Shown here: positions 4,348 through 47,127 of the stretch, one piece after another
How the letters are laid out: every line of letters starts with the position of its first letter
Numbering within the stretch: the first letter of the stretch is position 1
Assembly (NCBI GenBank): GCA_038061995.1
Contig: JBBTYA010000001.1
Span: forward strand, 10,441 to 74,440
Origin: Patescibacteria group bacterium
GTDB lineage: Bacteria; Patescibacteriota; Minisyncoccia; 2-02-FULL-40-12; GWA2-44-9
Direction: 5' to 3'
DNA length: 64,000 nucleotides
Notes under the pieces: generated by a model
Told to the model about the DNA's origin: nothing
Databases searched by the model: none
What the model saw: only the letters and a program-made list of their open reading frames with translations
Made by a program: the position numbers and the translations under genes

Positions 4348-4366
4348 ATAAGAAGAGCTTGTAGGA

Positions 4367-4501
4367 GGGATGGGTGTTATTTTCACTACCCTCTCGCAGC
4401 CCGAACAGTAAAGATTGCTCTATAACATAAGGTGAGGGCGAGTAGGAGCGCGAGCATTCGCAGGATGCTCGACGCGTGGTAGGGAAAGTAACACCCATCC
4501 C
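4367..4501 (+). repeat. Structured repeat family, copy A. It has 18-bp inverted-repeat arms (gggatgggtgttattttc / gaaagtaacacccatccc) around a conserved core (cctctcgcagcccgaac ... ggtgagggcgag ... a hairpin with loop tcgcagga).
   Basis: Shares the core motifs with the copies at 5332-5484, 21560-21696 and 27891-28021. Its arms are specific to this copy but self-complementary. Confidence 0.5.
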
Positions 4502-4518
4502 GATTGATTTTATAAAAC

Positions 4519-5259: not shown

Positions 5260-5331
5260 AGTAGTATAGAGAGAATACGAAGCTCGGATATCGTACCAAA
5301 GCCAAGCCAAAAAGGCAAGAAGTCTCATCGG

Positions 5332-5484
5332 CAAAGAAGCCTTCGCATCCCTCCAGACACGCGTCTCATGCTTCCTGCGAGCATGAGCGCTCCCTCTCAC
5401 CCTCACCCAAGCTTCTGTACTAGAAGCTCGACCAAGCGGTTTGGGTTCCGAGAGGTCTTACGGGATTACGAAGGCTTCTTTTGG
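5332..5484 (-). repeat. Structured repeat family, copy D (minus orientation), in the 5' leader region of rplY
   Basis: Its reverse complement reads ...agacctctcggaacccaaaccgcttgg...gggtgagggtgagagggagcgctcatgctcgcaggaagcatgagac..., which is near-identical to copy B. Compensatory changes are ctcttgc/gcaagag in B versus ctcatgc/gcatgag here. Flanking 14-bp arms are caaagaagccttcg/cgaaggcttctttg. Confidence 0.55.
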
Positions 5485-5616: not shown

Positions 5617-6582
5617 ATGCTATTCATGCTCGGCGTGATTGGTGCTGCCGTCTTCTGCCTGGGAGGGCTAATCCGGGGGTTGGCTCGTAATTGGAGAAAC
5701 CTCCCCAACTTCGTCTGCAACAAGGTTGGCGGCGTGACCGCCTACTGCTCAGTAGAAGACTTCCGTGCTGGAAAGCGCATCCCTGGCGACATGGTAGTGG
5801 CTCCCGGCACCATCTCGTTCATCGAAAAGCCATGGTCAGGCATGCCATGCGCGGCCTATCTCATGAACGCGTCACCATGGCCCTTCTTCTACGGCGACGC
5901 AAAGAACGAGCCACAGCTCTTCGTGCCGTTCGCGTCGGAGCGACACATGCCATTCAAGGCTCAAGCCAGCGTCTTCAGCTTCGCCCCGAAGACGCTGGAA
6001 GAGCTCGAAAAGATGATCAGAGACAAGCGAGAGAGAAACACTCGCAATGATGCGCGCTTCCGTCTCCTCAAATTCGAGCGCAAGTTCGATGAGGAGATCT
6101 TCACAACAAGACTGGTTGCCTTCTTCCTCGTTTTGGTGGTGATAGCTGTCGGATCACTGAGAGGGCTCGACCGATGGGAGAAGGAGCGCCTCGCAGCACC
6201 GGCAGCGTTCTACACCACGACCGCCGGCTCCTCTGAGCTCACCGAGCATCGCGGGACCGAAGGCGATCTGCGAAAGCTGATCGTCTACGGAGGTATCAAC
6301 GATACCATCGTTGCAGGGCCGGTCACGGATATCATGGCTCTCGGCGGAGGACTTTCGTACGTCTGCGTCCGCGTGGGCTCCCCCGAGCGCAGAGAGTGTG
6401 GCTTCGGAGGCCTGGAGACGGTGGCCCAGAAGATCGGGCAGACCGCCTACATTCGCAAGAGCCTTGGGAAAAACTGGTTCGTGCCCAACAGCCCCGAAGG
6501 CTACAGTGATTCCGTCTCGTGGCTCATCACCAAGCCCGAGGCAAGAGCGCTCGCCGCGAAAGGCTACGCGCTCAAGGAGTAA
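5617..6582 (+). CDS. Hypothetical membrane protein
   Basis: 321-aa ORF with hydrophobic segments at the N-terminus and mid-protein (FFLVLVVIAVGSL). No family was recognised. Confidence 0.4.
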   Translation: MLFMLGVIGAAVFCLGGLIRGLARNWRNLPNFVCNKVGGVTAYCSVEDFRAGKRIPGDMVVAPGTISFIEKPWSGMPCAAYLMNASPWPFFYGDAKNEPQLFVPFASERHMPFKAQASVFSFAPKTLEELEKMIRDKRERNTRNDARFRLLKFERKFDEEIFTTRLVAFFLVLVVIAVGSLRGLDRWEKERLAAPAAFYTTTAGSSELTEHRGTEGDLRKLIVYGGINDTIVAGPVTDIMALGGGLSYVCVRVGSPERRECGFGGLETVAQKIGQTAYIRKSLGKNWFVPNSPEGYSDSVSWLITKPEARALAAKGYALKE

Positions 6583-6587
6583 TCCCC

Positions 6588-6625
6588 ACAGCCCCAGAGA
6601 AATCTTCTGATTTCTCTGGGGCTTC
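6588..6625 (+). terminator. Rho-independent terminator after the 5617-6582 ORF
   Basis: Stem ccccagagaaatc...gatttctctgggg followed by a T-rich tail. Confidence 0.5.
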
Positions 6626-6659
6626 TTCATTTATAAAGCTGAAAGCTGGCAGGGTATAC

Positions 6660-6694
6660 AAAAAGAGAGGCGCTTAAGCGCCTCTCTTTTTTCT
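6660..6694. terminator. Bidirectional terminator hairpin
   Basis: Stem aaaagagaggcgc ttaa gcgcctctctttttt, with an A-run on the 5' side and a T-run on the 3' side. Confidence 0.5.
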
Positions 6695-6709
6695 TACACA
6701 TACCACCCT

Positions 6710-7426
6710 CTAGAACCCTGAACGATTACGGCGCGAGGCGTTCCAGCGCCATGCTGCGAGCGCTACAAGAATAACTGCCGCCAGCACTCCCCACGTGCGA
6801 GTCGTAAGGCCGAGGAAGAATGCTGCCTGTGTAAGGTCAGGCGTTTCGCCCTCTGTTTCTGTTCCTACAGTATTACCTTCAAGTGGCGTTGGGCTTACTG
6901 ATGCCCCTGCAATTGCTCCTGCATCAGGTGACGCAGTTGCCGCTGCTGGAGCTGGCGTACGCACCGTAACTGCTACCGTGCTACCGCCAGTGAAAAGGTT
7001 TGCGTTCGTGCCATCAAGCATGAGTGTAGCGCCTGCTACTGCGATAGTTGCAGTGCCTGCCTGCTTTGCGCGAAAGGTTGCCGTACCTAATGCGCGAGGC
7101 GTGTTGAAGCCACCCGCGACACCGCCTGTTTTAATGAGTGCGCCTGTGGCGTTATCAATGGCATCATAGCCAGGTTGCGCTACGGGAAGCCATCCCGAAG
7201 CAAACGTGAAACCGGTTACTTCAAGAACTGCTGGATCAAACGAGACGTTTGCACGCGCTGTCGTAATGGTTGCGCCAGTTGGATTTGCGGTCACGGTAAC
7301 GGTGAAGCGCTGCCCGGTAGATACCGCACGTGATGCTTGGCCAAGCGAGATCGTTGCCGCATGTGCGGAAGTCGCCACAGCCCCCACTAATACAACCGCG
7401 AGAACGAAAGAATAAAGATGTTTCAT
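6710..7426 (-). CDS. Secreted cohesin-like beta-sandwich domain protein with a C-terminal TM anchor and a basic tail
   Basis: Signal peptide MKHLYSFVLAVVLVGAVATSAHA. Domain pattern RFTVTVTANPTG...VSFDPAVLEV...YDAIDNATGALIKTGG...GTATFRAKQAGTATIAV is cohesin-like. The C-terminus reads TPDLTQAAFFLGL...ILVALAAWRWNASRRNRSGF. Confidence 0.5.
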   Translation of the reverse strand: MKHLYSFVLAVVLVGAVATSAHAATISLGQASRAVSTGQRFTVTVTANPTGATITTARANVSFDPAVLEVTGFTFASGWLPVAQPGYDAIDNATGALIKTGGVAGGFNTPRALGTATFRAKQAGTATIAVAGATLMLDGTNANLFTGGSTVAVTVRTPAPAAATASPDAGAIAGASVSPTPLEGNTVGTETEGETPDLTQAAFFLGLTTRTWGVLAAVILVALAAWRWNASRRNRSGF

Positions 7427-14745: not shown

Positions 14746-14949
14746 CTATGAGGCAGGTTGCGCCGCCGCGAATTCGGCGGCATGCGCCCACAGCACTCCG
14801 CAGAAGGGGCACGCGCGAGCGTCGCCCTGCAGGCAATTCTCGCACTTGCTCCCGCTACACCGCGAACAGGAATACAGAAGGACTCCATCTTCCCCGCAGT
14901 GTGTACAGTTGCCCGCGTGCGTATGGGCGACTACCTTCTCGCTGGCCAT
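14746..14949 (-). CDS. Small Cys-rich protein with four CxxC motifs (double zinc ribbon)
   Basis: The translation MASEKVVAHTHAGNCTHCGEDGVLLYSCSRCSGSKCENCLQGDARACPFCGVLWAHAAEFAAAQPAS carries CTHC, CSRC, CENC and CPFC. It has its own terminator. Confidence 0.4.
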   Translation of the reverse strand: MASEKVVAHTHAGNCTHCGEDGVLLYSCSRCSGSKCENCLQGDARACPFCGVLWAHAAEFAAAQPAS

Positions 14950-15859: not shown

Positions 15860-17122
15860 CTATACTTCTACAGAACCTTTAATAATATTCTCCGTAAAGA
15901 GCTCATTCATTTTCTCGCGGCCGATATATTCACTAAAGAAACGGTTCCACAACGCCTCCTGATGATGATACGAATAGCGCATCATGCCTTTCACCACCGA
16001 AGACATCACTAAATCGATGAGGTTAAAACTTACAAACTTTTCATTCCCCGCAGAATCTTTAAAGAAATCCCCCACGGCATCGAGACCAGTCCAGTATCCG
16101 AGATCAAACGCTTCCTTTCCAAGCGCTCGCCCAACCTGGCCCAAGTCCTCACCTACTTTATACCAATGCTCTGCTTCTGGGTTAATGTGTGGTTCGCCCA
16201 AGCGCGGATCTGCTTCGGAATCTTTCGCGAGATACCGCTGGATGACACGCCACACCGCCTTTTTACCTTCGCTCGGCGCTGGGAGCGGCCCTTCAGACAC
16301 ATCACCGCGGAGCAGTGACTGTAGTTTTGTAACGAAATCAGCGTCTTTCATGTAGGTACGAAAACGCTCGGTGTAAAACGGCACTTCGTGCAGATAGTGC
16401 ATGAGAAGCGTAAACAAACGCAGTGTTTCACCCTGCGTATCAATCTTGAGCGGGATCACGAAAATCACGCCATACTCCTTTAAGTGGCTTACGTTGTGGT
16501 ACTTCTTCTCTAAAAATTTATCTGCGACGCCAAGCCATTTCGGGTCTAAGATTTTTACTTCAACTTCACGCTCTTCAAAATCTTCTGGTTTTAGCTCACT
16601 GTAGGCCAGGTCAAAAAACGCGTGCATCCAGCCGGTATCCTGCGTGAAGCGAAGTGCGCTCACCACAGACGCGAACCCCTCCTTTTCAACAAGAGTCGCA
16701 ATGTCACTATAGCCAAAGTGTTTGATAAGGTTCTCTGGCTTATATTTTTCCAACAGAGACACCACGCGCTCGCGCTTGATAAACATGCCGCGGGGCGGTG
16801 TGTACACCTTTAGTGCTACTTCACACAGCTTGCCACACACCAGAGACATCTCCGCAAGGTTTGGCTTGTCCAAAAGCTCGTAAAGCTGGGAATCAAGCTG
16901 AGCAAGACGCTTAATCAACGCTCCGTAGACCGTATCTGCCGCATCCGTGCGTGACAGGCCATGCTCTGCAAGAATGCGATCTACGAGTGTTTGGTTCTGT
17001 GAAAGGATCGCATCGATTGCGCCCGTCTTTCCTGTTGCCGCACTTAATTCCGCATCTGCTTTTTCGATAACCGCCGGTGTCGTGTGTAGCAAGCGTGCAA
17101 GTTGTGTGTGAGATTCTGCCAT
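15860..17122 (-). CDS. Hypothetical protein (~420 aa) with no recognised family
   Basis: Long ORF. The probable start is MAESHTQ at 17122, because the upstream 34 codons (MVSKSYVSGNSACG...) look non-coding. Confidence 0.45.
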   Translation of the reverse strand: MAESHTQLARLLHTTPAVIEKADAELSAATGKTGAIDAILSQNQTLVDRILAEHGLSRTDAADTVYGALIKRLAQLDSQLYELLDKPNLAEMSLVCGKLCEVALKVYTPPRGMFIKRERVVSLLEKYKPENLIKHFGYSDIATLVEKEGFASVVSALRFTQDTGWMHAFFDLAYSELKPEDFEEREVEVKILDPKWLGVADKFLEKKYHNVSHLKEYGVIFVIPLKIDTQGETLRLFTLLMHYLHEVPFYTERFRTYMKDADFVTKLQSLLRGDVSEGPLPAPSEGKKAVWRVIQRYLAKDSEADPRLGEPHINPEAEHWYKVGEDLGQVGRALGKEAFDLGYWTGLDAVGDFFKDSAGNEKFVSFNLIDLVMSSVVKGMMRYSYHHQEALWNRFFSEYIGREKMNELFTENIIKGSVEV

Positions 17123-17349
17123 ATGCCCATTCTCGCTGAAACAGCTTAAAGTACAAGGCCCGTGTGTGGGTATATCAAACAATCCACACGCACTATTGCC
17201 CGATACGTAAGACTTTGATACCACGCCTCCTTAAGTAGCGATGAAGCGCTCGGCACCGCTCGAATGCGTAGGCGGACCGAGTACGGCAGTCCCGCAGCAA
17301 AGGTCCTGCACGGTGAGAGATCACCTGTAGGGCACGGAGGAACACAGTT

Positions 17350-17433
17350 ATGTTCCGGCACGGCGAAGCGCGCGAGATGAAGTTCGAAGACGTGCGGCAC
17401 TTCGTGGACAAGGCGAAGGTCCAGAAGGGCTAG
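17350..17433 (+). CDS. Candidate small ORF of 27 aa with a strong Shine-Dalgarno sequence (GGAGGAA, 9 nt upstream), inside a GC-rich intergenic region
   Basis: Sequence cacGGAGGAAcacagttATG..., encoding MFRHGEAREMKFEDVRHFVDKAKVQKG. It is followed by a 10-bp perfect hairpin at 17452-17476 and a terminator at 17538-17566. Confidence 0.25.
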   Translation: MFRHGEAREMKFEDVRHFVDKAKVQKG

Positions 17434-17537
17434 CACCGCGGCTGAAGACGAAAAGATGTGGGGGCCACAAGCCCCCACATCCCCCTCCACTACCGTTCTT
17501 TACAGAATCACAGCGCGCCACACGGCGCACAACAAGG

Positions 17538-17566
17538 GGCCTCGCGGAAACGCTCGAGGCCTTTTT
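17538..17566 (+). terminator. Rho-independent terminator (+ strand)
   Basis: Stem ggcctcg cggaaacgct cgaggcc followed by ttttt. Confidence 0.4.
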
Positions 17567-17618
17567 CATACCTAAAACTGCCTATTTTCCTTGCTTTTTT
17601 CGGCTATATTCGTGGTTG

Positions 17619-17648
17619 TTGACATATATAGTGGAAATGTGATAGTAT
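17619..17648 (+). promoter_or_regulatory. Sigma70-like promoter (TTGACA, then 17-18 nt, then TAGTAT/ATAGTA)
   Basis: Sequence TTGACAtatatagtggaaatgtgaTAGTATatata. It lies upstream of a ~550-nt terminator-delimited unit. Confidence 0.4.
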
Positions 17649-17838
17649 ATATACAGTTCCGTAAAAACCAATAGCGCGGGCCGGGCCACATTGGCCGCCC
17701 GCACACAAGAAAAACCCGTTGCGCAAAATCGCCCCGCTCGGCCGACCCCCTCGATGGGCTCGCGCGCCGACAAGGCACACGCGCAGCATGTCCGCTTGTA
17801 AGAGCGCTGGAAACGCCTTACGAGCAAGGAGAAGCGCT

Positions 17839-17940
17839 ATGCACGCTCACTCCCCGCCCGTCGCGGGAACCCTGGAGAAGAAATTCAAGTTCGACTTCGA
17901 CAAGGGCCTGGCCGGCGACAACGGCACCCTCCTGAAGTAG
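17839..17940 (+). CDS. Candidate small ORF of 33 aa with a Shine-Dalgarno sequence (AGGAGA, 6 nt upstream), inside the promoter-to-terminator unit 17619-18212
   Basis: Sequence caAGGAGAagcgctATG..., encoding MHAHSPPVAGTLEKKFKFDFDKGLAGDNGTLLK. The track shows a longer 73-aa in-frame version starting at 17719. Confidence 0.3.
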   Translation: MHAHSPPVAGTLEKKFKFDFDKGLAGDNGTLLK

Positions 17941-18179
17941 GGCGTCGGCGCCTCCGCTCGTAACCCCCCACTCCGCCATCGTTCCACGACGGGACGAAAG
18001 AGAGATCGGGGGGAACCGGCAACCACAGTCGGCGTAGAGCGTTTCCGAAGGCATTTCTGAAGGTGCCCAAGGAGAAGCCTACGCAGAGAAAGGACTAAGA
18101 ACCGCCACCCACCGCAGCCCTGGCACGGCAGGCACCGCCCCCACACGGGGAGCGCGCCCAAGAGTGGGTTGACCAACAA

Positions 18180-18212
18180 GGGGCTCCGACACATCGGAGC
18201 CCCTCTTTTATT
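18180..18212 (+). terminator. Rho-independent terminator (+ strand)
   Basis: Stem ggggctccg acacat cggagcccc followed by tcttttatt. Confidence 0.45.
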
Positions 18213-18229
18213 ACTCCAAAACGCGGGAA

Positions 18230-18258
18230 TTGACAGTTGTTATAAAAGACAGTATACT
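18230..18258 (+). promoter_or_regulatory. Sigma70-like promoter (TTGACA, 17 nt, TATACT) heading a ~300-nt ORF-less unit that ends at the 18531-18573 terminator
   Basis: Sequence TTGACAgttgttataaaagacagTATACT. Confidence 0.4.
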
Positions 18259-18530
18259 CTTTTTAGCACTTTTCATCCGTCATCCCCATCGCCCCCCCAC
18301 GCAGGTTTCAGCAATCTTCGTGGGGCCAGCCCCTTTTGACTCCTAAAGGGCCGATTCGTGTGCATAGTCTTTCTCCAGGCAAAGGTGCACACGCCATGCA
18401 GCCGTCCGAAGGTCGGCAAAGAAGGAATCGAGAGAGCCCCCTCTCTTGAACGTCTCTGCATGGTCCCGCTGATGCGCAAAGCAAACGCATCAGACCTCCT
18501 TTCGCGGCGCTTGCCGCACGTCGCCGTTCG

Positions 18531-18573
18531 CCCCTCGTGTAATCCGGGATATCACGAGGGGCTTTTTCTTTTT
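18531..18573 (+). terminator. Rho-independent terminator (+ strand)
   Basis: Stem cccctcgtg ... cacgagggg followed by ctttttcttttt. Confidence 0.45.
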
Positions 18574-21523: not shown

Positions 21524-21559
21524 AGTAATGCCAGTATAGCATAGTGCTTAATATATCTT

Positions 21560-21696
21560 AAGAATACGAGATGTTGTTCTGGAGAGCCTCTCGGAGCCCG
21601 AACCGCTCGGACGAGCGAAGCTCGGGTGAGGGCGAGAGGGAGTGCTCTTGCTCGCAGGAAGCAAGAGACACGTGCTCGGAAGAACAATGTCTCGTA
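21560..21696 (+). repeat. Structured repeat family, copy B. It has 21-22-bp inverted arms (aagaatacgagatgttgttct / agaacaatgtctcgtattctt) plus a U-run, and sits in the 5' leader of the glutaredoxin gene.
   Basis: Core gagcctctcggagcccgaaccgctcgg...gggtgagggcgagagggag...gctcttgc tcgcaggaa gcaagagac. Confidence 0.55.
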
Positions 21697-21741
21697 TTCT
21701 TTTTTGTTGTCGCTGGCCCAGTTGTGCTATACTCGTTACCT

Positions 21742-27890: not shown

Positions 27891-28021
27891 GTGCGATATT
27901 CCCCTGAAGACCATTCGGAGCCCGAGCGGGCAGGGTGTCTCCGTAAGGAGACGAGCGAGGGCGAGTGAGACCGCGCGGTCCCGCTGGGACCGCGACGGGA
28001 GTCGGAAGGGGGATGTCGCAC
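27891..28021 (+). repeat. Structured repeat family, copy C (divergent variant). It has 13-14-bp inverted arms (gtgcgatattcccc / ggggatgtcgcac) around a core cattcggagcccgagcgg...gagcgagggcgagtgag.
   Basis: Shares the 11-mer tcggagcccga and the gacgagcga...gggcgag motifs with copy B. It lacks the tcgcagga hairpin and instead holds other GC hairpins (gtctccgtaaggagac, ggtcccgctgggacc). Confidence 0.45.
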
Positions 28022-28044
28022 GGATTTCGGGGGATTCTGCGCAA

Positions 28045-42315: not shown

Positions 42316-42349
42316 GGATTTTTACTCTAGCATGGCGTCCTAAAAAAGC

Positions 42350-42602
42350 AATAAAAAATGAACGCCCCCACGATCTCTCGTGGGGGCTGGGGTTGTTCTC
42401 GGCTACCGCGCTAGCGGTAGCCGGCGGGCAACCCCTTCTCGGGGCTCCAGGCACCCAGCTTCTCGCTGGGCCGGAGCCAGGGGGCCGCGGGGGCCGCCTG
42501 GTGCGTGCCCCGCGTGATGCACGCGGGGGTACGGCGCGTCGGCTTGTGAACCATAGTTCACCTCCTGTCTTTAATTATAGCACGTAATAGTATAAAAGTC
42601 AA
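42350..42602 (-). promoter_or_regulatory. Compact expression unit. It consists of a canonical promoter (TTGACT, 17 nt, TATAAT), a perfect Shine-Dalgarno sequence (AGGAGGTGA), a 47-codon GC-rich ORF (42411-42554) made of consecutive perfect hairpins, and a rho-independent terminator. It lies 35-60 nt upstream of the TPR membrane gene. It is either a candidate structured leader/ncRNA or a small protein gene.
   Basis: The -35 is at 42597-42602 and the -10 at 42574-42579. ATG is at 42554 and the stop TAG at 42411. The peptide is MVHKPTRRTPACITRGTHQAAPAAPWLRPSEKLGAWSPEKGLPAGYR. The RNA folds into 9-10-bp perfect stems (cccccgcgtg/cacgcgggg, cggctaccgc/gcggtagccg). The terminator is cccccacga...tcgtggggg plus TTTTTT. 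Confidence 0.4.
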
Positions 42603-42609
42603 CTCCTCT

Positions 42610-43212
42610 TTACGGGCGGTTTACGAGGAGAGAAAAGGGGTTTAATGCCTCTCGGCGCAGATACATCCCTAGGTGAAGGTGCGGTGGTGTTGTCACCGCA
42701 TTGCCCGTATTACCCACAAATCCAATCACTGTATCAGTGGTCACCCACTGCCCTGCCGCTATACCTTCGGCAGATCTATCGAGGTGAGCGTAGTAATAGC
42801 GAAGTCCTCCCGCACCAGCGATCCACACTGTGTTGCCGCCCAGCTCTCGATCTTCTTGAACGCGCACAACGTATCCCTTCGTTGCAGAAAAAATAGGCGT
42901 TCCACGAGATGCAAAAATATCTTGCCCTTCATGCCCGCGATCTTCACCGCGAGGCGCACCCCATGTATCGCTCACTTGGCGCACTGAAACGCCATAGACA
43001 GGCATCACCAACACTGCATCAGGTTCCTGCGCGCTTAAGCGTGCAAGCTTCAAAGGAAACGTGATACGGAATAAAAAAGAGTCTATATACTCTGCAATGC
43101 GTAACGTAGCGTCGGGATGCGTTTCAGGAAAGCGTACTATAAAAAACGCGCCCCAGATAAGCGCGACTACAGCGATACAGGTACCAGCAAAAAGAATGAA
43201 CCGTTGCTGCAT
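42610..43212 (-). CDS. M23-family metallopeptidase
   Basis: HEGQDIF, YAHLD and GNTGNAVTTPPHLHLG motifs (HxxxD ... HxH). Confidence 0.75.
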   Translation of the reverse strand: MQQRFILFAGTCIAVVALIWGAFFIVRFPETHPDATLRIAEYIDSFLFRITFPLKLARLSAQEPDAVLVMPVYGVSVRQVSDTWGAPRGEDRGHEGQDIFASRGTPIFSATKGYVVRVQEDRELGGNTVWIAGAGGLRYYYAHLDRSAEGIAAGQWVTTDTVIGFVGNTGNAVTTPPHLHLGMYLRREALNPFSLLVNRP

Positions 43213-43221
43213 GTCACAGTA

Positions 43222-43740
43222 TTATAACGTACGGCTGTCATATGCCCAATGAAGAAGCGCCTGGCGCTGTTTCGGACGGCATGTAACATCTCCCGCCTTG
43301 CAGTTTTTGCGCACTTGCGCGACGTGGCGCCGAATTGCCTTCCAGCGCTTGATCTGCCGTGCATCTTCTTCTGGCATGCGACGGCCCATATAATACCGAC
43401 AGTACCACTGAAACCACCCGCGAGGATCATCGGGGTGGATCCACCCCTTCTTCTGCCAGACAGAAAGCGGTTGGCTCGCCCGAACCTTAAAAAAGTTTAT
43501 CGAGGGATCATGCCTTTCGGGAGAAAGCTTCGCGTGCATGAACCAATCTGCAGGAAACTCATCACGACAATCGGTCATGTATTTTCCTCCAAAGACACCA
43601 AGTGCGAGCATCTCCTTTGGCGAAAGGCCTGGCGTAAAAACGGGATCAAACTGTTTGCCCATTGGCGCAACGCACCCATATGAATACCCGCGTTGCATTT
43701 TGTCATGCACAACAATCATGCGCTTGGAGACCATACTCAC
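43222..43740 (-). CDS. Hypothetical protein with a W/Y-rich conserved block (GWFQWYCRYYMGRR...IKRWK)
   Basis: 172-aa ORF. The motif was noted but the family is not recalled with confidence. Confidence 0.4.
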   Translation of the reverse strand: MSMVSKRMIVVHDKMQRGYSYGCVAPMGKQFDPVFTPGLSPKEMLALGVFGGKYMTDCRDEFPADWFMHAKLSPERHDPSINFFKVRASQPLSVWQKKGWIHPDDPRGWFQWYCRYYMGRRMPEEDARQIKRWKAIRRHVAQVRKNCKAGDVTCRPKQRQALLHWAYDSRTL

Positions 43741-44117
43741 TATTGGAAAGCGACAGAAAAACTATACATCCCCATAGCACAGACACCGCGCATAGTCGTG
43801 CCGGGAGTCTGCGCTGGAACAGGAATACGCGTTTCACCAGACATTGGCAGGTTCGCACGATACTCGAGAGCTGGAATAGTGAGGGCGCCTGAACAGTCAA
43901 AAGTCCCCTGAGTTATTACGTTAAAGACAGTTGGTAGATTCGCAGATGCCATGGTCTGACGCGGAGCATAGCCACCCTTCGCATAAATAGTAACCACCTG
44001 CACGCCATCAACGACGGCCACATTGTTCTCGTATGATTGGTTATCCCCGCGCGAGAAAAGAAGAGAACCCGCTACTAATGCTATCGCGGCCACCATGGCG
44101 CCAATAATTAATTTCAT
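43740..44117 (-). CDS. Hypothetical secreted/periplasmic protein
   Basis: N-terminal hydrophobic helix (MKLIIGAMVAAIALVAGSLLF), then a domain with Cys/Met residues. Confidence 0.35.
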   Translation of the reverse strand: MKLIIGAMVAAIALVAGSLLFSRGDNQSYENNVAVVDGVQVVTIYAKGGYAPRQTMASANLPTVFNVITQGTFDCSGALTIPALEYRANLPMSGETRIPVPAQTPGTTMRGVCAMGMYSFSVAFQ

Positions 44118-44147
44118 AACAGTGTATCGAGTGTAGCACGACAACCA

Positions 44148-45167
44148 CTAAAAGCCGAGGATCGGTGGCAGTACACCGAGGGCAACCATGCTATTGATCG
44201 CGTTTAGGATGCCGAAGAATAATACGACCAGCCCAGCGGTTTTAAAGAAAACGCTCGACTGCTTCTTTGTACGCACCCCCAGAGACCCGAAGCTCAAGAG
44301 CGCCAATACTGGCAACGTACCGAGCGCAAAGAAAAGCATAGTGAGCCCACCCGCCATAAACCCTCCCACAGATAACGTATAGATCTGCATTGACTGTGTA
44401 AAACCGCACGGCAAGAAGAACGTTGCAACACCCGCAACAAGGGGAAAGATGGAGCTGTGGAGAGCCCGCGTTTTTTGCACCGATGCACCGAAGAATGCTG
44501 GAAGTGACGGTTGTAGTTTACGCGCCCAAGGAAATACATCAAGTAAATTAAGTCCGAGGATCATGAGCACCAGCGCTACGATCATCCCCAAGAGGAACGT
44601 CCCCGTAGCTCCGAGCTGGAACGATGCGCCAACCATACCGATCACACCCCCAAGGACAAAGAAGGAAATAAGGCGCCCTACATGAAATAGAAGCTGCGGT
44701 CGCATCTTCTCACCCTCTTGAGCAAAGTGCGTTGAGAGCGAGAGCACGAGGCCACCAACGACCGCCATACATGTTGAGATAGATGCGATAGCACCAATAA
44801 GAAATGCGGTGCCATACCCTACCTCTGATGCATTTACCCAATTCACCACTCCCATACTCTGTAAAAGAATAAACACTCCAACAAAGATACCCGCGAATGG
44901 GAGCGCGAGCGCAAAATCACCCCATCGCGCCTGGTGCGCTTCCTGAACAAGCGAAACGGTGTATCCATGCGGTTGCATCACCGCAGTAAGGTCTTCGGCG
45001 ATATGCTGCGGTTGCTTGTCACCGAAATCACCGGTAACGGTAATAGTCTTTGTATCAAGCGATGCACGTATGTGTGAGACTTCAGGCAACTCCCCTATAA
45101 GCGTTTCTGACAAAGCAGCGCAAGATTTGCAACGCATGCCATTAAGGTGAAATGTGTATGTACTCAT
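44148..45167 (-). CDS. Heavy-metal-associated (HMA) domain fused to a DsbD/CcdA-like thiol-disulfide transmembrane permease
   Basis: N-terminal HMA motif GMRCKSCA, then about six TM helices with Cys residues in TM segments (STCMAVVGG, FFLPCGFTQ). Confidence 0.6.
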   Translation of the reverse strand: MSTYTFHLNGMRCKSCAALSETLIGELPEVSHIRASLDTKTITVTGDFGDKQPQHIAEDLTAVMQPHGYTVSLVQEAHQARWGDFALALPFAGIFVGVFILLQSMGVVNWVNASEVGYGTAFLIGAIASISTCMAVVGGLVLSLSTHFAQEGEKMRPQLLFHVGRLISFFVLGGVIGMVGASFQLGATGTFLLGMIVALVLMILGLNLLDVFPWARKLQPSLPAFFGASVQKTRALHSSIFPLVAGVATFFLPCGFTQSMQIYTLSVGGFMAGGLTMLFFALGTLPVLALLSFGSLGVRTKKQSSVFFKTAGLVVLFFGILNAINSMVALGVLPPILGF

Positions 45168-45168
45168 T

Positions 45169-45438
45169 TTATTTTCGCTTCAAACGATATACGGTTAATA
45201 TCTCTTCCTGCGCCTTCTGTGTCTGCCCTGCGCGGATTTGCTCTACGACACAGGTGTTTAAATGCCCCTCCAGCAATAGGTCTTCGACGCGAGAAAGCCC
45301 CTGTTTTACGGCCGATGTTTGCGCAATAACGTCGATACAATAGACGCCCTTCTCCACGAGGTCTTGCAAGCCACGCACCTGACCTTCAATAATTTTGAGG
45401 CGGCGTACTATAGAATGTATGTTTGGTATGCGTGTCAT
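45169..45438 (-). CDS. csoR: CsoR/RcnR-family metal-sensing transcriptional repressor
   Basis: 89 aa with the Cys, His, Cys pattern of the CsoR family (YCIDVIAQ...LEGHLNTCV). Confidence 0.75.
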   Translation of the reverse strand: MTRIPNIHSIVRRLKIIEGQVRGLQDLVEKGVYCIDVIAQTSAVKQGLSRVEDLLLEGHLNTCVVEQIRAGQTQKAQEEILTVYRLKRK

Positions 45439-45449
45439 AGATACGGTGT

Positions 45450-45635
45450 ATGAAAAGTGAGGGATGAGGCCGTATAAACGACCCCACCCCTCGTGTTAGG
45501 GAGCAGCTCGAACGAGAGCTACTCCCTGGTACCGCAGCCCTCTTCGCAGTGGGCCACGGCCCGAAGGAACCACTTGCAGCGCATGGTGCACCTCCTTTCA
45601 CATTCCAGTATACCCCCCTGGGGTATCTATGTCAA
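45450..45635 (-). promoter_or_regulatory. Leader unit upstream of csoR. It consists of a canonical promoter (TTGACA, 17 nt, TATACT), a Shine-Dalgarno sequence (AAGGAGGTG), a 21-codon Cys-containing ORF (45519-45584) and a terminator-like hairpin ~10 nt before the csoR start.
   Basis: The -35 is at 45630-45635 and the -10 at 45607-45612. The peptide is MRCKWFLRAVAHCEEGCGTRE. A hairpin gggagtagctc/gagctgctccc is followed by gaggg...ccctc and TTTTCAT. Confidence 0.35.
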
Positions 45636-46115
45636 TAGGCTGTTCAGTTGATAAATGCTCCAGTTTAGATATGCCGCAAAACTCACCCACGCGATGTAGG
45701 GCACAAGCAAAAGCGTCGCAGTGCGTGAAATAGGGTAAAACGCACGCATAGTTGCAAGAATCGCAATGATTAAAAAGAGAATCTCAATGAACGCGGCCCC
45801 GGGATTTCGCAGGCCAAAAAACACAATGGACCAGAGCGTATTAAGCCCGAGCTGAATAAGAAAGATGCCGAGCGCTACACGAACATCCTGCCGACGCATT
45901 CCCCTTTCCCACACCAACCATACTGCAATGCCCATGAGAAAAAAGAGGGTGACCCACACGGGGCCGAACACCCAGCTTGGCGGCGCGAACGCTGGCCTTA
46001 AGAGATACACGTACCAGCTCGAGATGGCATTCACCGTAAAGAACGATCCGAGAATTCCAGCGAGTTGAGAAGCGCTAATAGTAATAACGAGTCGGAGAAA
46101 TGAGTTACGCTTCAT
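45627..46115 (-). CDS. tspO: TspO/MBR (tryptophan-rich sensory protein) family membrane protein
   Basis: Five TM helices with PPSWVFGPVWVTLFFLMGIAVWLVW. Confidence 0.8.
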   Translation of the reverse strand: MKRNSFLRLVITISASQLAGILGSFFTVNAISSWYVYLLRPAFAPPSWVFGPVWVTLFFLMGIAVWLVWERGMRRQDVRVALGIFLIQLGLNTLWSIVFFGLRNPGAAFIEILFLIIAILATMRAFYPISRTATLLLVPYIAWVSFAAYLNWSIYQLNSLLT

Positions 46116-46162
46116 TACACACTAGTATACCACTGAATATGCTACAGCACATAAGAAAACAC

Positions 46163-46190
46163 AAAAACCGCGCAGTGCGCGGCTCTCATG
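46163..46190 (-). terminator. Rho-independent terminator after rpmH
   Basis: Minus-strand stem ccgcgca ctg tgcgcgg followed by tttttgtgtttt. Confidence 0.45.
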
Positions 46191-46203
46191 AGTGTAAAAA
46201 CGT

Positions 46204-46332
46204 TATTTCGATTTCTTTGTCTTGCGTGCGGCAAGCATTGCGTGCTTGATCGCCATGCGCTTACTCGTCTTGTGAGAGCGAGGTTTATTTTTAAGTGAAT
46301 TGTGCCCAAGGGCGCCACGTCGTTTTGCCATA
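46204..46332 (-). CDS. rpmH: 50S ribosomal protein L34 (42 aa; below the ORF-track cutoff)
   Basis: The translation MAKRRGALGHNSLKNKPRSHKTSKRMAIKHAMLAARKTKKSK aligns with the L34 consensus ...SxLKRxRSHGFRARMATKxGRxVLAARRxKGR. A TATGAT -10 element lies 8 nt upstream of the ATG. Confidence 0.6.
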
Positions 46333-46470
46333 GAAAAGCATCATACGGTATTTTCCAAAAAATTACCAGTATAAAAAGATGGGGGCCCACAGTAATGGTA
46401 TTAGTAGCACCACGGCTGCGTGGAAGTGATTCATTGACACGGGTGGCATGCGGCGCACAATGGAAGTACT

Positions 46471-47127
46471 GTGGTCATCTCAATCTCAAAACGCACAATC
46501 ACACTCTTACTCATCGGCTTTGGTATTGTTACATATTTCACCACTCAGTTCTGGCCGCTACCAGAGACTCTCTTATTAGACGTACCTTTCACTAACCAAG
46601 CTCCGACGGGCATGTGGGACCGCAACGAAGACTGTGAAGAAGCAAGTATTGCGATGGCACAAGCATATCTCTCCGGCGACACGGAAAATCTACTACCATC
46701 TGCGGGGGCAACGTCCTATATCAGTAGGTTGCGCGCATGGAAACAGGCAAATATTGGCTACAATGCCGACACTGGCGCATATGCAACCTCTCGTATGGCG
46801 GAAGGTGCGTTTGGTATTACCGTGAAGCAAATTCATAATTATACCGAAACTGATCTGAAGCGTGCGCTAGCTAAGAACCACGTTGTGCTATTACCGATTG
46901 ATGCACGCATGCTGGGGGCGCAATCGTATACGAACTCCGGTCCCACCTACCACATGGTTGTTGTGCGAGGATACACCGCCACCCACTTCATCGTGAATGA
47001 CCCCGGTACCACAGGTGGCAATGGCGTAGAGTATTCGTTTGACACCCTTTTTGCAGCAGCAGCGGACTGGAATAATGCTGCAAAAATTATGGACTCGACA
47101 ATCAAGGTCGCCCTTATCCTTTCTTGA
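46471..47127 (+). CDS. Peptidase C39-like (papain-fold, BtrH-like) domain protein with an N-terminal TM helix
   Basis: Catalytic-type Cys context NEDCEEASIAMAQAYL and a His near HMVVVRGYTA. N-terminal hydrophobic helix. Confidence 0.5.
   Translation: MVISISKRTITLLLIGFGIVTYFTTQFWPLPETLLLDVPFTNQAPTGMWDRNEDCEEASIAMAQAYLSGDTENLLPSAGATSYISRLRAWKQANIGYNADTGAYATSRMAEGAFGITVKQIHNYTETDLKRALAKNHVVLLPIDARMLGAQSYTNSGPTYHMVVVRGYTATHFIVNDPGTTGGNGVEYSFDTLFAAAADWNNAAKIMDSTIKVALILS

What the first reader, a model, noticed from the sequence alone, without database searches (positions are those of the whole stretch)
43740..46115. Metal-homeostasis module behind a Cys-containing leader peptide: promoter, SD and the 21-aa MRCKWFLRAVAHCEEGCGTRE, then csoR, an HMA-DsbD fusion and a periplasmic protein
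On the minus strand, a perfect TTGACA, 17 nt, TATACT promoter and an AAGGAGGTG Shine-Dalgarno sequence drive a 21-codon ORF with three Cys residues. It is followed by a terminator-like hairpin whose U-tract ends ~10 nt before the csoR ATG. The operon then continues with a CsoR-family metal-sensing repressor, an HMA (GMRCKSCA) domain fused to a DsbD/CcdA-like permease, and a small periplasmic Cys/Met protein. A Cys-rich micro-ORF coupled to a terminator directly in front of a metalloregulator suggests that the operon is controlled by metal-dependent attenuation, or by a small metallochaperone-like peptide. An HMA domain fused to a DsbD-like reductant permease is also an uncommon architecture.
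Basis: partly seen in the sequence, partly recalled or inferred. Interest (0 to 1): 0.55.

Follow-up and report, generated by a model that had tools for sequence, protein, structure and literature searches.

The report
CsoR copper operon with inserted leader
This is an ordinary copper-resistance operon of a groundwater CPR bacterium, switched by the CsoR repressor binding inside its own promoter; the Cys-containing mini-gene and hairpins in front of it are a one-off 168-base addition absent from all related genomes examined, with no sign of sensing metal.

Summary
The interpretation mostly fails.

- **The switch was missed.** A CsoR operator (ATACCCCAGGGGGGTAT, TAC-N9-GTA) fills the promoter spacer.
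- **The leader is unique to this lineage.** In 32 related CPR genomes the same promoter and operator sit 16-52 nt before the csoR ATG, which implies a leaderless or near-leaderless mRNA. Here the distance is 187 nt, so the micro-ORF and hairpins form a 168-nt insert. No copy was found elsewhere.
- **No attenuator logic.** The terminator-like hairpin forms whatever the ribosome position, its T-tract is weak, and the three Cys codons are scattered.
- **The fusion is common.** HMA-DsbD_2 has over 7,000 homologs and is almost always followed by the small protein, which is CupA-like (profile E = 2.8e-9; CxMxM kept in 77 of 77).
- **One real difference.** The window lacks the copA ATPase that 54 of 80 relatives carry directly upstream of HMA-DsbD_2.

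The ribosome-binding site may still work: 3 of the 4 AGGAGGTG sites in this SD-poor window precede small ORFs. Overall this is a lineage-specific variant of a known system, of modest interest.

The parts
45627..46115 (-). TspO/MBR family gene (162 aa). It looks leaderless (TATACT, 8 nt, then ATG), and its TAG stop codon lies immediately after the TTGACA -35 hexamer of the csoR promoter.
   Evidence: Pfam PF03073, E = 7e-50; sequence read; upstream context.
45607..45635 (-). Sigma-70-type promoter: TTGACA, 17 nt, TATACT.
   Evidence: 11 of 12 matches. The same TTGAC...TATA design is conserved upstream of csoR in the relatives.
45610..45626 (-). CsoR operator ATACCCCAGGGGGGTAT (TAC-N9-GTA). It fills the promoter spacer and overlaps the first 3 nt of the -10 hexamer.
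   Evidence: Only G-tract palindrome of this kind in the window, against 0.06-0.09 expected by chance. Found upstream of csoR in every relative that could be read. Matches the TAC-N9-GTA core of the published consensus ATATACCCCTNAGGGGTATAT (PMC3902906).
45439..45606 (-). Lineage-specific 168-nt leader between the -10 hexamer and the csoR ATG. It is 58% GC, against 52% for the window.
   Evidence: Absent from all relatives, where the operator starts 16-52 nt before the ATG. No other copy found by blastn, tblastx, covariance model or metagenome scans. No Rfam match.
45589..45597 (-). Extended Shine-Dalgarno sequence AAGGAGGTG, placed a few nt after the expected transcription start.
   Evidence: Three of the four AGGAGGTG sites in the window precede an ATG by 4-5 nt.
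45519..45584 (-). 21-codon ORF MRCKWFLRAVAHCEEGCGTRE plus TAG stop. GC3 is 0.86. The same frame stays open after the TAG and ends in a TGA that overlaps the csoR ATG.
   Evidence: Not called as a gene in the public assemblies.
45528..45562 (-). Hairpin H1 (-20.6 kcal/mol), inside the micro-ORF.
45498..45527 (-). Hairpin H2 (-22.2 kcal/mol); its 5' arm contains the TAG stop codon.
45453..45492 (-). Hairpin H3 (15 bp, -26.9 kcal/mol) followed by AC and a run of four T. Terminator-like, but with a weak T-tract.
   Evidence: pattern hit. One search gives the energy and shows it is independent of ribosome position.
45169..45438 (-). csoR (89 aa), with the Cu(I)-type ligand set C34/H59/C63. No SD upstream.
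   Evidence: Pfam PF02583, E = 5e-22. Best solved-structure matches are Cu(I) CsoRs 4M1P, 4ADZ and 2HH7, with the ligands aligned. NCBIfam best match is RicR at 2e-16, ahead of RcnR and FrmR.
44148..45167 (-). HMA-DsbD_2 membrane protein (339 aa): GMRCKSC motif in the N-terminal domain, about 7 TM helices, and conserved membrane Cys residues (STCMAV, LPCGFTQSM). Its ATG is 1 nt after the csoR stop.
43740..44117 (-). CupA-like cupredoxin protein (125 aa): N-terminal membrane anchor, C75, and C113-x-M115-x-M117.
   Evidence: Family profile against PDB: CupA 2MRY/4F2E at E = 2.8e-9. CxMxM kept in 77 of 77 homologs. Invariant columns listed.
43222..43740 (-). 170-172-aa protein with no family match. 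Its start overlaps the stop of the CupA-like gene, so it is probably the last gene of the operon. Absent from the relatives.

Best explanation
The locus is a copper(I)-responsive operon: csoR, HMA-DsbD_2, a cupA-like gene and probably the 172-aa gene. Its switch is the CsoR repressor itself. Without copper, CsoR sits on the ATACCCCAGGGGGGTAT palindrome that occupies the spacer and the edge of the -10 hexamer, and so blocks RNA polymerase. Cu(I) binding to Cys34/His59/Cys63 releases it. In related CPR bacteria this promoter starts a leaderless or near-leaderless csoR mRNA. In this lineage a 168-nt GC-rich, hairpin-rich segment of unknown origin has been added between the -10 hexamer and the csoR ATG. 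I take it to be a constitutive structured 5' leader rather than a sensor. Its near-perfect SD probably loads ribosomes onto the 21-codon ORF. Its three stable hairpins form regardless of translation. H3, with its weak T-run, would at most cause partial, unregulated termination; that would damp operon output and also stop read-through from the TspO gene, which ends inside the promoter. The proteins probably pass Cu(I), or reducing power, from the cytoplasmic HMA domain through the Cys/Met-lined membrane domain to the CupA-like cupredoxin outside the membrane. Shown here: the sequence elements, operator conservation, absence of the leader in relatives, family assignments and structure predictions. 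Inferred: repression and derepression, the transcription start, translation of the micro-ORF, the effect of H3, the direction of copper or electron flow, and membrane topology.
For: Operator: unique in the window, with 0.06-0.09 matches expected by chance. It occurs 34 times in 519 kb of related loci, 33 of them 16-52 nt before an ORF start, nearly always csoR. It fits the TAC-N9-GTA core of the published consensus ATATACCCCTNAGGGGTATAT (PMC3902906). CsoR type: Cu(I) CsoR structures are the best matches and the C-H-C ligands align; RicR scores above RcnR and FrmR. Leader is lineage-specific: one search shows TTGACA, operator, TATAnT, then about 6-30 nt to the ATG in every relative, against 168 nt here; there is no other copy anywhere. 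Not an attenuator: H3 is intact under every ribosome mask; its tail ACTTTTCATA compares poorly with the T-runs of clear terminators in the window; no promoter is predicted between H3 and csoR. Yet the three genes are intact and conserved, so transcripts must pass H3. RBS plausibly functional: 3 of 4 AGGAGGTG sites precede small ORFs in a genome where 3 of 54 genes have a strong SD. Module: CupA-like by profile, E = 2.8e-9, with CxMxM in 77 of 77; a natural HMA-DsbD_2-cupredoxin fusion exists; copper-type HMA matches.
Against: There are no expression data, so the transcription start, termination at H3 and translation of the micro-ORF are all untested. The leader is a singleton, so neither conservation nor covariation can speak for or against a function. 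The degree of structure (z = -6.2; third of 5,108 windows) and a sister unit of the same build at 42609-42316 suggest the leader may be more than neutral baggage. The frame-0 continuation to an ATGA overlap with csoR, and the period-3 GC bias, hint at a coding origin instead. With the leader in place csoR has no SD and is no longer leaderless, so how it is translated is unexplained.
Confidence: 0.6

Rival explanations
1. The Cys-containing micro-ORF together with the H3 terminator forms a metal- or cysteine-responsive attenuator: ribosome behaviour on the ORF decides between termination and read-through into csoR.
For: The elements are present in the right order: promoter, SD, ORF with 3 Cys, hairpin plus T-run, then csoR. 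Cys-responsive leader ORFs exist in mycobacteria (bioRxiv 10.1101/834739). The RBS is probably functional.
Against: No alternative pairing competes with H3 under any ribosome position. The stop codon is 26 nt upstream of H3, and H2 lies between them. The Cys codons are scattered, not consecutive. csoR has no SD for a duplex to sequester. The whole leader is absent from all relatives, which regulate through the operator alone. The T-tract is weak.
Confidence: 0.07
2. The leader is the decayed remnant of a small gene of about 49 codons. That gene once sat between the promoter and csoR and was translationally coupled to csoR; a nonsense mutation (TAG at codon 22) has since truncated it.
For: Read through the TAG, the same frame stays open for 27 more codons and ends in a TGA overlapping the csoR ATG (cTATGA). 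The GC3 bias continues past the stop: 0.81 over 42 codons, against 0.55 and 0.52 at positions 1 and 2. A gene led by an SD is what one expects once the mRNA is no longer leaderless.
Against: An open frame ending in the ATGA overlap is expected about 13% of the time by chance (my estimate, recorded). The period-3 signal of the ORF alone gives p = 0.06. No relative has any gene at this position. There is no translated similarity to anything. Three perfect 11-15-bp hairpins are unusual for coding sequence.
Confidence: 0.12
3. The leader is a functional copper-induced small RNA or micropeptide unit. It would belong to a genome-specific class of SD-led, GC-rich, hairpin-embedded micro-ORFs, and has been placed under CsoR control.
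For: A second unit at 42609-42316 has the same build: strong promoter, AGGAGGTGaactATG, a 47-codon ORF with GC3 = 0.94 (p = 6e-4), stacked hairpins (z = -7.0) and a good terminator. Both units start with an SD a few nt after the expected transcription start.
Against: The two units share only the RBS segment (local score 21, against 16.8 +/- 2.3 for shuffles). The covariance model of the leader scores the other unit at E = 2.2. orf47 has no real protein homologs and no Rfam match. The peptides are dissimilar, and orf47's product looks like low-complexity sequence. There is no conservation evidence of any kind.
Confidence: 0.1
4. The leader is a miniature mobile or palindromic repeat element (MITE/REP-like) that landed by chance between the promoter and csoR.
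For: Its ends can pair (UGUGAAAG with CUUUUCAUA). Its GC content is above the genome's. The same window carries a four-copy structured repeat family, so such elements exist in this genome.
Against: There is no second copy in the 64-kb window, in 519 kb of related loci or in the JGI metagenome collection, by exact hairpin patterns. I saw no clear target-site duplication when reading the junctions. The rest of this genome could not be searched.
Confidence: 0.1

Closest known systems
CsoR-regulated cop operons of Gram-positive bacteria and actinobacteria (B. subtilis copZA, M. tuberculosis cso, Streptomyces lividans csoR/copZA)
   Same: A DUF156/CsoR repressor with the C-H-C Cu(I) site. Autoregulation. 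A G-tract pseudopalindrome with TAC-N9-GTA that overlaps the promoter; the S. lividans consensus ATATACCCCTNAGGGGTATAT is nearly the same sequence. Copper-handling genes lie downstream.
   Different: The usual partners CopZ and CopA are missing from the window. The cargo is instead HMA-DsbD_2 plus a CupA-like cupredoxin. A 168-nt structured leader with a micro-ORF separates the promoter from csoR.
The CPR-wide operon csoR - copA - HMA-DsbD_2 - cupA-like gene (loci L004-L083 fetched here)
   Same: The same promoter and operator design, orthologous csoR (56-76% identity in most loci), HMA-DsbD_2 (53-64%) and CupA-like gene (37-64%), in the same order.
   Different: Relatives have a leaderless or short-leader csoR, and 54 of 80 have a roughly 765-aa P1B ATPase directly upstream of HMA-DsbD_2. 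The window has the 168-nt leader, no copA anywhere in 64 kb, csoR abutting HMA-DsbD_2, and TspO co-directional upstream.
CupA, the membrane-anchored cupredoxin Cu(I) chaperone of Streptococcus pneumoniae (PDB 4F2E, 2MRY)
   Same: A single N-terminal TM helix plus a cupredoxin-like domain. The bridging Cys and the C-x-M-x-M ligands align. It is encoded in a copper-repressor operon.
   Different: Sequence similarity is remote (single-sequence E = 0.012; profile E = 2.8e-9). The domain here is probably outside the membrane, inferred from 7 TM helices and the C-terminal fusion in P0097, whereas CupA serves the cytoplasmic domain of CopA (PMC7558416). The partner here is HMA-DsbD_2, not a cupredoxin-bearing CopA.
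Polycysteine leaderless short ORFs acting as Cys-responsive attenuators in mycobacteria (Canestrari et al., bioRxiv 10.1101/834739)
   Same: A short Cys-containing ORF as the first cistron of an operon, in an organism rich in leaderless mRNAs.
   Different: The mycobacterial ORFs are leaderless, carry runs of consecutive Cys codons, control cysteine-metabolism genes, and act when a stalled ribosome opens a duplex that hides the downstream RBS. Here the ORF is SD-led, its 3 Cys are scattered, the downstream gene has no SD, and the folds show no ribosome-sensitive duplex.

Membership tests
CsoR/RcnR (DUF156, PF02583) repressors, Cu(I)-sensing CsoR subtype | Significant match to the family model over the whole helical-bundle domain | tested here: met
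   PF02583 at E = 5.2e-22, residues 9-82. PDB CsoR 4M1P at E = 2.7e-17.
CsoR/RcnR (DUF156, PF02583) repressors, Cu(I)-sensing CsoR subtype | x-C-H-C ligand fingerprint (Cys36, His61, Cys65 in M. tuberculosis CsoR) | tested here: met
   Window C34, H59 and C63 align with the YC...H-x3-C positions of 4M1P, 4ADZ and 2HH7. Which residues are the ligands in 2HH7 is from my own knowledge.
CsoR/RcnR (DUF156, PF02583) repressors, Cu(I)-sensing CsoR subtype | G-tract pseudopalindromic operator (TAC-N9-GTA) at its own promoter | tested here: met
   ATACCCCAGGGGGGTAT at 45610-45626, in the promoter spacer. Consensus from PMC3902906. Conserved in every relative that could be read.
CsoR/RcnR (DUF156, PF02583) repressors, Cu(I)-sensing CsoR subtype | Cu(I)-dependent release from DNA | not testable with these tools
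   Needs EMSA or ITC with purified protein.
Ribosome-mediated transcription attenuators (trp-leader type) | Mutually exclusive terminator and antiterminator pairings, chosen by ribosome position on the leader ORF | tested here: not met
   H3 persists under all six ribosome masks, and no competing helix appears.
Ribosome-mediated transcription attenuators (trp-leader type) | Intrinsic terminator (G+C-rich stem directly followed by a run of U) before the regulated gene | tested here: inconclusive
   The stem is strong (-26.9 kcal/mol), but the tail is AC-UUUU-CAUA, only just passing the scan rule and weaker than the tails of clear terminators in the window.
Ribosome-mediated transcription attenuators (trp-leader type) | Conservation of the leader ORF and its regulatory codons among relatives | tested here: not met
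   No relative has a leader; the operator starts 16-52 nt before the ATG.
Polycysteine sORF translational attenuators (mycobacteria) | A run of consecutive Cys codons, plus a duplex that sequesters the downstream RBS | tested here: not met
   Cys at codons 3, 13 and 17 only. csoR has no SD. The predicted folds show only a small local hairpin at the csoR start, not pairing with the leader. Criteria.
CupA-like cupredoxin Cu(I) chaperones | N-terminal TM anchor, cupredoxin-like domain, and bridging Cys plus C-x-M-x-M ligands | tested here: met
   One TM segment at residues 3-21. Profile against CupA at E = 2.8e-9, with both motifs aligned. C75, C113, M115 and M117 invariant. 77 of 77 homologs keep CxMxM. 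The fold itself was not modelled.
CupA-like cupredoxin Cu(I) chaperones | Cu(I) binding and transfer to a partner transporter | not testable with these tools
   Biochemical assay needed.
HMA-DsbD_2 fusion proteins (PF00403 + PF13386) | N-terminal GMxCxxC ferredoxin-like domain followed by a DsbD_2 membrane domain with one Cys in each half | tested here: met
   Pfam hits. C13, C16, C133 and C254 invariant across 25 sequences. More than 7,000 homologs.
Known RNA families (Rfam 15) | Covariance-model match of the leader to any curated family | tested here: not met
   No match in the leader at E <= 10. Only tRNAs reach gathering score in the whole window.

The most novel reading that the evidence does not exclude
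The leader and the sister unit at 42609-42316 belong to an undescribed class of transcription units in leaderless-dominated CPR genomes. Each has a minimal 5' end carrying a perfect AGGAGGTG, a short high-GC3 ORF threaded through stacked hairpins, and a terminal hairpin. Such units would act as dual-function RNAs or micropeptides. In this locus one of them has been put under CsoR control, so copper stress would induce a Cys-bearing micropeptide or a regulatory RNA ahead of the resistance genes.
Probability: 0.1. Interest if true: 0.6.

Novelty: new variant of a known kind. Interest (0 to 1): 0.27.

Why it matters
The main value is corrective. The locus does not reveal a new metal-sensing attenuator. 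It is regulated in the standard way, by a CsoR operator embedded in the promoter, and the domain fusion flagged as unusual is one of the commonest copper-module proteins in CPR bacteria. Three smaller points may interest specialists. (1) CPR bacteria share a very uniform, apparently leaderless, autoregulated csoR promoter, which is a clean case for studying leaderless regulation. (2) CupA-like cupredoxins, described in a review as limited to a few streptococci (PMC7558416), are the constant partner of HMA-DsbD_2 across CPR, and probably face outward. (3) This one lineage has lost copA from the operon and gained a structured leader carrying an SD. That is a natural experiment in converting a leaderless gene into a leadered one.

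Tried and rejected
- Rfam on the region at E <= 10, and on the whole window at gathering score: nothing in the leader.
- Other copies of the leader were sought with the repeat finder, blastn-short and tblastx against the window plus 83 loci, a covariance model of the three-hairpin core against the window and 519 kb of relatives, and two exact hairpin-pattern scans of the JGI metagenome collection. All found only the leader itself. The metagenome patterns required near-identical stems, and the source samples (ENA, Logan) are probably not in that collection, so those two negatives are weak.
- Closer relatives: the protein search found nothing between 64% and 100% identity, so no comparison at intermediate distance was possible. 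The strain variants L001 and L002 differ at 0 and 2 of 9,020 positions, which is uninformative.
- I considered a hybrid origin for the HMA domain, by deletion between the HMA domains of copA and HMA-DsbD_2. I rejected it because the window's N-terminus matches the HMA-DsbD_2 family consensus throughout.
- I considered an internal promoter that would give a leaderless csoR from within the leader. None is predicted, and no TAnnnT hexamer lies at the right distance.
- I considered that the MRCK shared by the micro-ORF and the GMRCKSC motif reflects a duplication. Only 4 residues match, similarity stops there, and I rated it chance (my estimate p of about 0.03-0.05).
- TAG recoding is rejected: TspO and the CupA-like gene both end in TAG.

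Full report
**Observation.**
- Promoter: TTGACA, 17 nt, TATACT at 45635-45607. It is the best promoter-like site in 43000-47000.
- Ribosome-binding site and ORF: AAGGAGGTG lies 5 nt upstream of the ATG of a 21-codon ORF at 45584-45519, MRCKWFLRAVAHCEEGCGTRE.
- Hairpin: a 15-bp hairpin at 45492-45459 with the tail ACTTTTCATA is the top terminator-like hit. Its T-run ends 14 nt before the csoR ATG.
- Genes, from Pfam: csoR at 45438-45169 (PF02583, E = 5e-22); a 339-aa HMA + DsbD_2 protein at 45167-44148; a weak Cupredoxin_1 match for the 125-aa protein at 44117-43740; and a TspO/MBR gene at 46115-45627 that the finding's coordinates include but its text does not mention.
- Source: public copies of the locus come from Hainich groundwater assemblies and are labelled Patescibacteria. 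The gene callers did not call the micro-ORF.

**The missed element.** Between the -35 and -10 hexamers lies ATACCCCAGGGGGGTAT (45626-45610).
- This is TAC-N9-GTA around G/C tracts. It fits the TAC-N9-GTA core of the CsoR type-2 consensus ATATACCCCTNAGGGGTATAT; the same paper shows that the TAC/GTA dyad is required for binding (PMC3902906).
- It is the only such site in the window, where 0.06-0.09 matches are expected by chance.

**Comparison with relatives.** I fetched 80 loci from different CPR species that encode HMA-DsbD_2 homologs of 53-64% identity.
- Thirty-four loci have a usable csoR hit upstream. Of these, 31 show a TACCCC..GGGGTA palindrome starting 16-52 nt (most often 27-28 nt) before the csoR ATG. 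Two had too little upstream sequence. One start was miscalled and was recovered.
- Across all 519 kb of these loci the motif occurs 34 times. Thirty-three of those lie directly before an ORF start, almost always csoR.
- Read directly, the design is uniform: TTGACA, the operator in the spacer, TATAnT, roughly 6-30 nt, then ATG. That implies a leaderless or very short-leader csoR mRNA.
- In the window the operator starts 187 nt before the csoR ATG. The 168 nt at 45606-45439, which carry the SD, the micro-ORF and all the hairpins, are therefore an addition specific to this lineage.

**Is the leader found anywhere else?** No.
- The repeat finder, blastn-short, tblastx, a covariance model of the three-hairpin core, and two hairpin-pattern scans of the metagenome collection return only the leader itself.
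- Rfam has no match.
- No relative closer than 64% exists in the protein database, and the strain variants are almost identical. Covariation or peptide conservation therefore cannot be assessed.

**Is the leader structured, and could it attenuate?** It is strongly structured, but it shows no attenuator logic.
- The MFE is -88.9 kcal/mol with z = -6.2, and it ranks third of 5,108 GC-corrected windows.
- There are three independent hairpins: H1 (-20.6 kcal/mol), H2 (-22.2) and H3 (-26.9). In addition the 5' end pairs with the T-run region.
- I refolded the transcript with 31 nt masked for a ribosome at the AUG, at each Cys codon and at the stop, and with the whole ORF masked. H3 was intact every time, so there is no antiterminator alternative.
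- The H3 tail (AC, four U, then CAUA) is much poorer than the tails of clear terminators in this window, such as those after the 42-aa gene, after orf67 and after orf47.
- No promoter is predicted between H3 and csoR. Yet csoR, HMA-DsbD_2 and the CupA-like gene are intact and keep all invariant residues. Transcripts must therefore pass H3.
- The known Cys-responsive leader ORFs in mycobacteria need consecutive Cys codons and a duplex that hides the next gene's RBS. Here the Cys codons are at positions 3, 13 and 17, and csoR has no SD.

**Is the micro-ORF translated?** Possibly.
- A crude survey of 54 long ORFs finds a strong SD in only 3, and a TAnnnT hexamer 3-16 nt before the ATG in 16 (TspO and the M23 peptidase are examples). 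This suggests mostly leaderless or SD-independent initiation. The start codons were taken as the longest ATG ORF, so these figures are rough.
- AAGGAGG occurs 10 times on this strand, mostly within genes.
- The full 8-mer AGGAGGTG occurs 4 times, and 3 of those precede an ATG by 4-5 nt. All three are in intergenic gaps and open small ORFs of 21, 47 and 67 codons. The RBS is thus likely to be real, and strong SDs seem to be used for small leadered ORFs.
- The 67-aa product looks like a Cys-rich zinc-ribbon protein.
- The 47-codon unit at 42609-42316 resembles the leader closely in build: TTGACT-17-TATAAT, AGGAGGTGaactATG, 75% GC, stacked hairpins (z = -7.0) and a good terminator. It has a strong period-3 bias (GC3 = 0.94, p = 6e-4).
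- However, orf47 has no real homologs and no Rfam match, and it shares nothing with the leader beyond the RBS segment.
- The leader ORF has GC3 = 0.86 (p = 0.06). Its frame, read past the TAG, stays open and ends in a TGA overlapping the csoR ATG. That is suggestive of a decayed coupled gene, but I estimate it would arise by chance about 13% of the time.

**The proteins.**
- CsoR aligns best with the Cu(I)-sensing CsoRs 4M1P, 4ADZ and 2HH7, with C34/H59/C63 at the ligand positions. NCBIfam ranks the copper sensor RicR above RcnR and FrmR.
- HMA-DsbD_2 has more than 7,000 homologs at E <= 1e-20, so it is not a rare architecture. Its invariant residues include the two HMA Cys and one Cys in each membrane half, in STCMAV and LPCGFTQSM. 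Only the HMA part matches solved structures, all of them copper chaperones or copper ATPases.
- The small protein follows HMA-DsbD_2 in nearly every relative. All 77 homologs keep C-x-M-x-M. A profile of the family hits S. pneumoniae CupA at E = 2.8e-9, and the cupredoxin domain of its CopA at 2.4e-4, with the ligand motifs aligned.
- One database protein, P0097, fuses the cupredoxin domain directly to the C-terminus of DsbD_2. Seven hydrophobic segments, with K+R counts alternating 6, 0, 2, 0, 4, 0, 3, 0 between loops, suggest N-in and C-out. The cupredoxin domain is therefore probably outside the membrane. This is an inference; no topology predictor was run.

**How the window differs from its relatives.**
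- Relatives carry csoR - copA (about 765 aa) - HMA-DsbD_2 - cupA-like. In 54 of 80, copA ends within 150 nt of HMA-DsbD_2, and about 20 more have it within 3 kb.
- The window has no copA in 64 kb, and csoR abuts HMA-DsbD_2 with a 1-nt gap.
- TspO, which neighbours the module in three relatives (divergent and upstream in two, downstream on the opposite strand in one), is co-directional here. Its stop codon lies directly after the -35 hexamer. The locus has clearly been rearranged in this lineage.

**Conclusion.**
- The best-supported mechanism is Cu(I)-CsoR derepression at an operator embedded in the promoter.
- The leader is a lineage-specific, constitutively structured 5' region of unknown origin. 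It may damp expression or insulate the operon from TspO read-through, and it may be translated. Nothing indicates that it senses metal.
- This is a new variant of a known kind of system, of modest interest.

Noticed in passing
window 4360-4510 (+), 21553-21708 (+), 5325-5480 (-), 27900-28040 (+): Four copies of a structured element of about 130-150 nt. They share a conserved core (CCTCTCGGAGCCCGAAC ... GGTGAGGGCGAGnGGGAG ... hairpin with loop YCGCWGGR) and have outer and inner stems whose sequences differ while pairing is kept: RNAalifold predicts 29 pairs, 18 of them with changes on both sides. There is no Rfam match. Two copies lie 3' of genes and two lie 5' of genes. This is a candidate undescribed CPR ncRNA or structured repeat family.
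   Followed up: partly
window 42316-42609 (-): A stand-alone unit with the same build as the leader: TTGACT-17-TATAAT, AGGAGGTGaactATG, a 47-codon ORF with 75% GC and GC3 = 0.94 (p = 6e-4), stacked hairpins (MFE -138 kcal/mol, z = -7.0), and a terminator CCCCCACGAGAGATCGTGGGGG followed by a T-run. No protein homologs and no Rfam family.
   Followed up: partly
window 14746-14949 (-): A 67-aa Cys-rich ORF (four CxxC-like pairs, zinc-ribbon-like) with its own -10 hexamer, an AGGAGGTG site 5 nt before the ATG, and a clean terminator. It is probably a real small protein. Only sub-threshold Pfam zinc-finger hits.
   Followed up: partly
whole window: Translation initiation looks mostly SD-independent or leaderless. 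Only 3 of 54 long ORFs have a strong SD, and many have TAnnnT 6-8 nt before the ATG (TspO at 46115 and the M23 peptidase at 43212, for example). Strong SDs cluster on small intergenic ORFs. The start codons were called crudely.
   Followed up: partly
loci L004-L083 and window 43740-44117: A CupA-like cupredoxin (invariant C...CxMxM) is the constant downstream partner of HMA-DsbD_2 across CPR phyla, and is fused to it in one protein (P0097). A review describes CupA as restricted to a few streptococci (PMC7558416). In CPR the domain is probably extracytoplasmic.
   Followed up: partly
window 6560-6740: The second most structured stretch of the window (z = -7.6). It holds two long perfect hairpins (AAAAAAGAGAGGCGCUUAAGCGCCUCUCUUUUU and GCCCCAGAGAAAUCAGAAGAUUUCUCUGGGGC) between convergent genes, and these are most simply read as bidirectional terminators.
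   Followed up: no
window 43222-43740 (-): A 170-172-aa protein with no Pfam or NCBIfam match. Its start overlaps the stop of the CupA-like gene. It is absent from all 80 related loci, so it is a lineage-specific addition to the 3' end of the operon.
   Followed up: partly
window 17122-18572: A stretch of about 1.4 kb in which my crude scan found no ATG-ORF of at least 120 aa. It contains an AAGGAGGTCTGATG site opening a 60-codon Cys-rich ORF (18490-18308) and a weak covariance-model hit (18133-18207, E of about 1).
   Followed up: no
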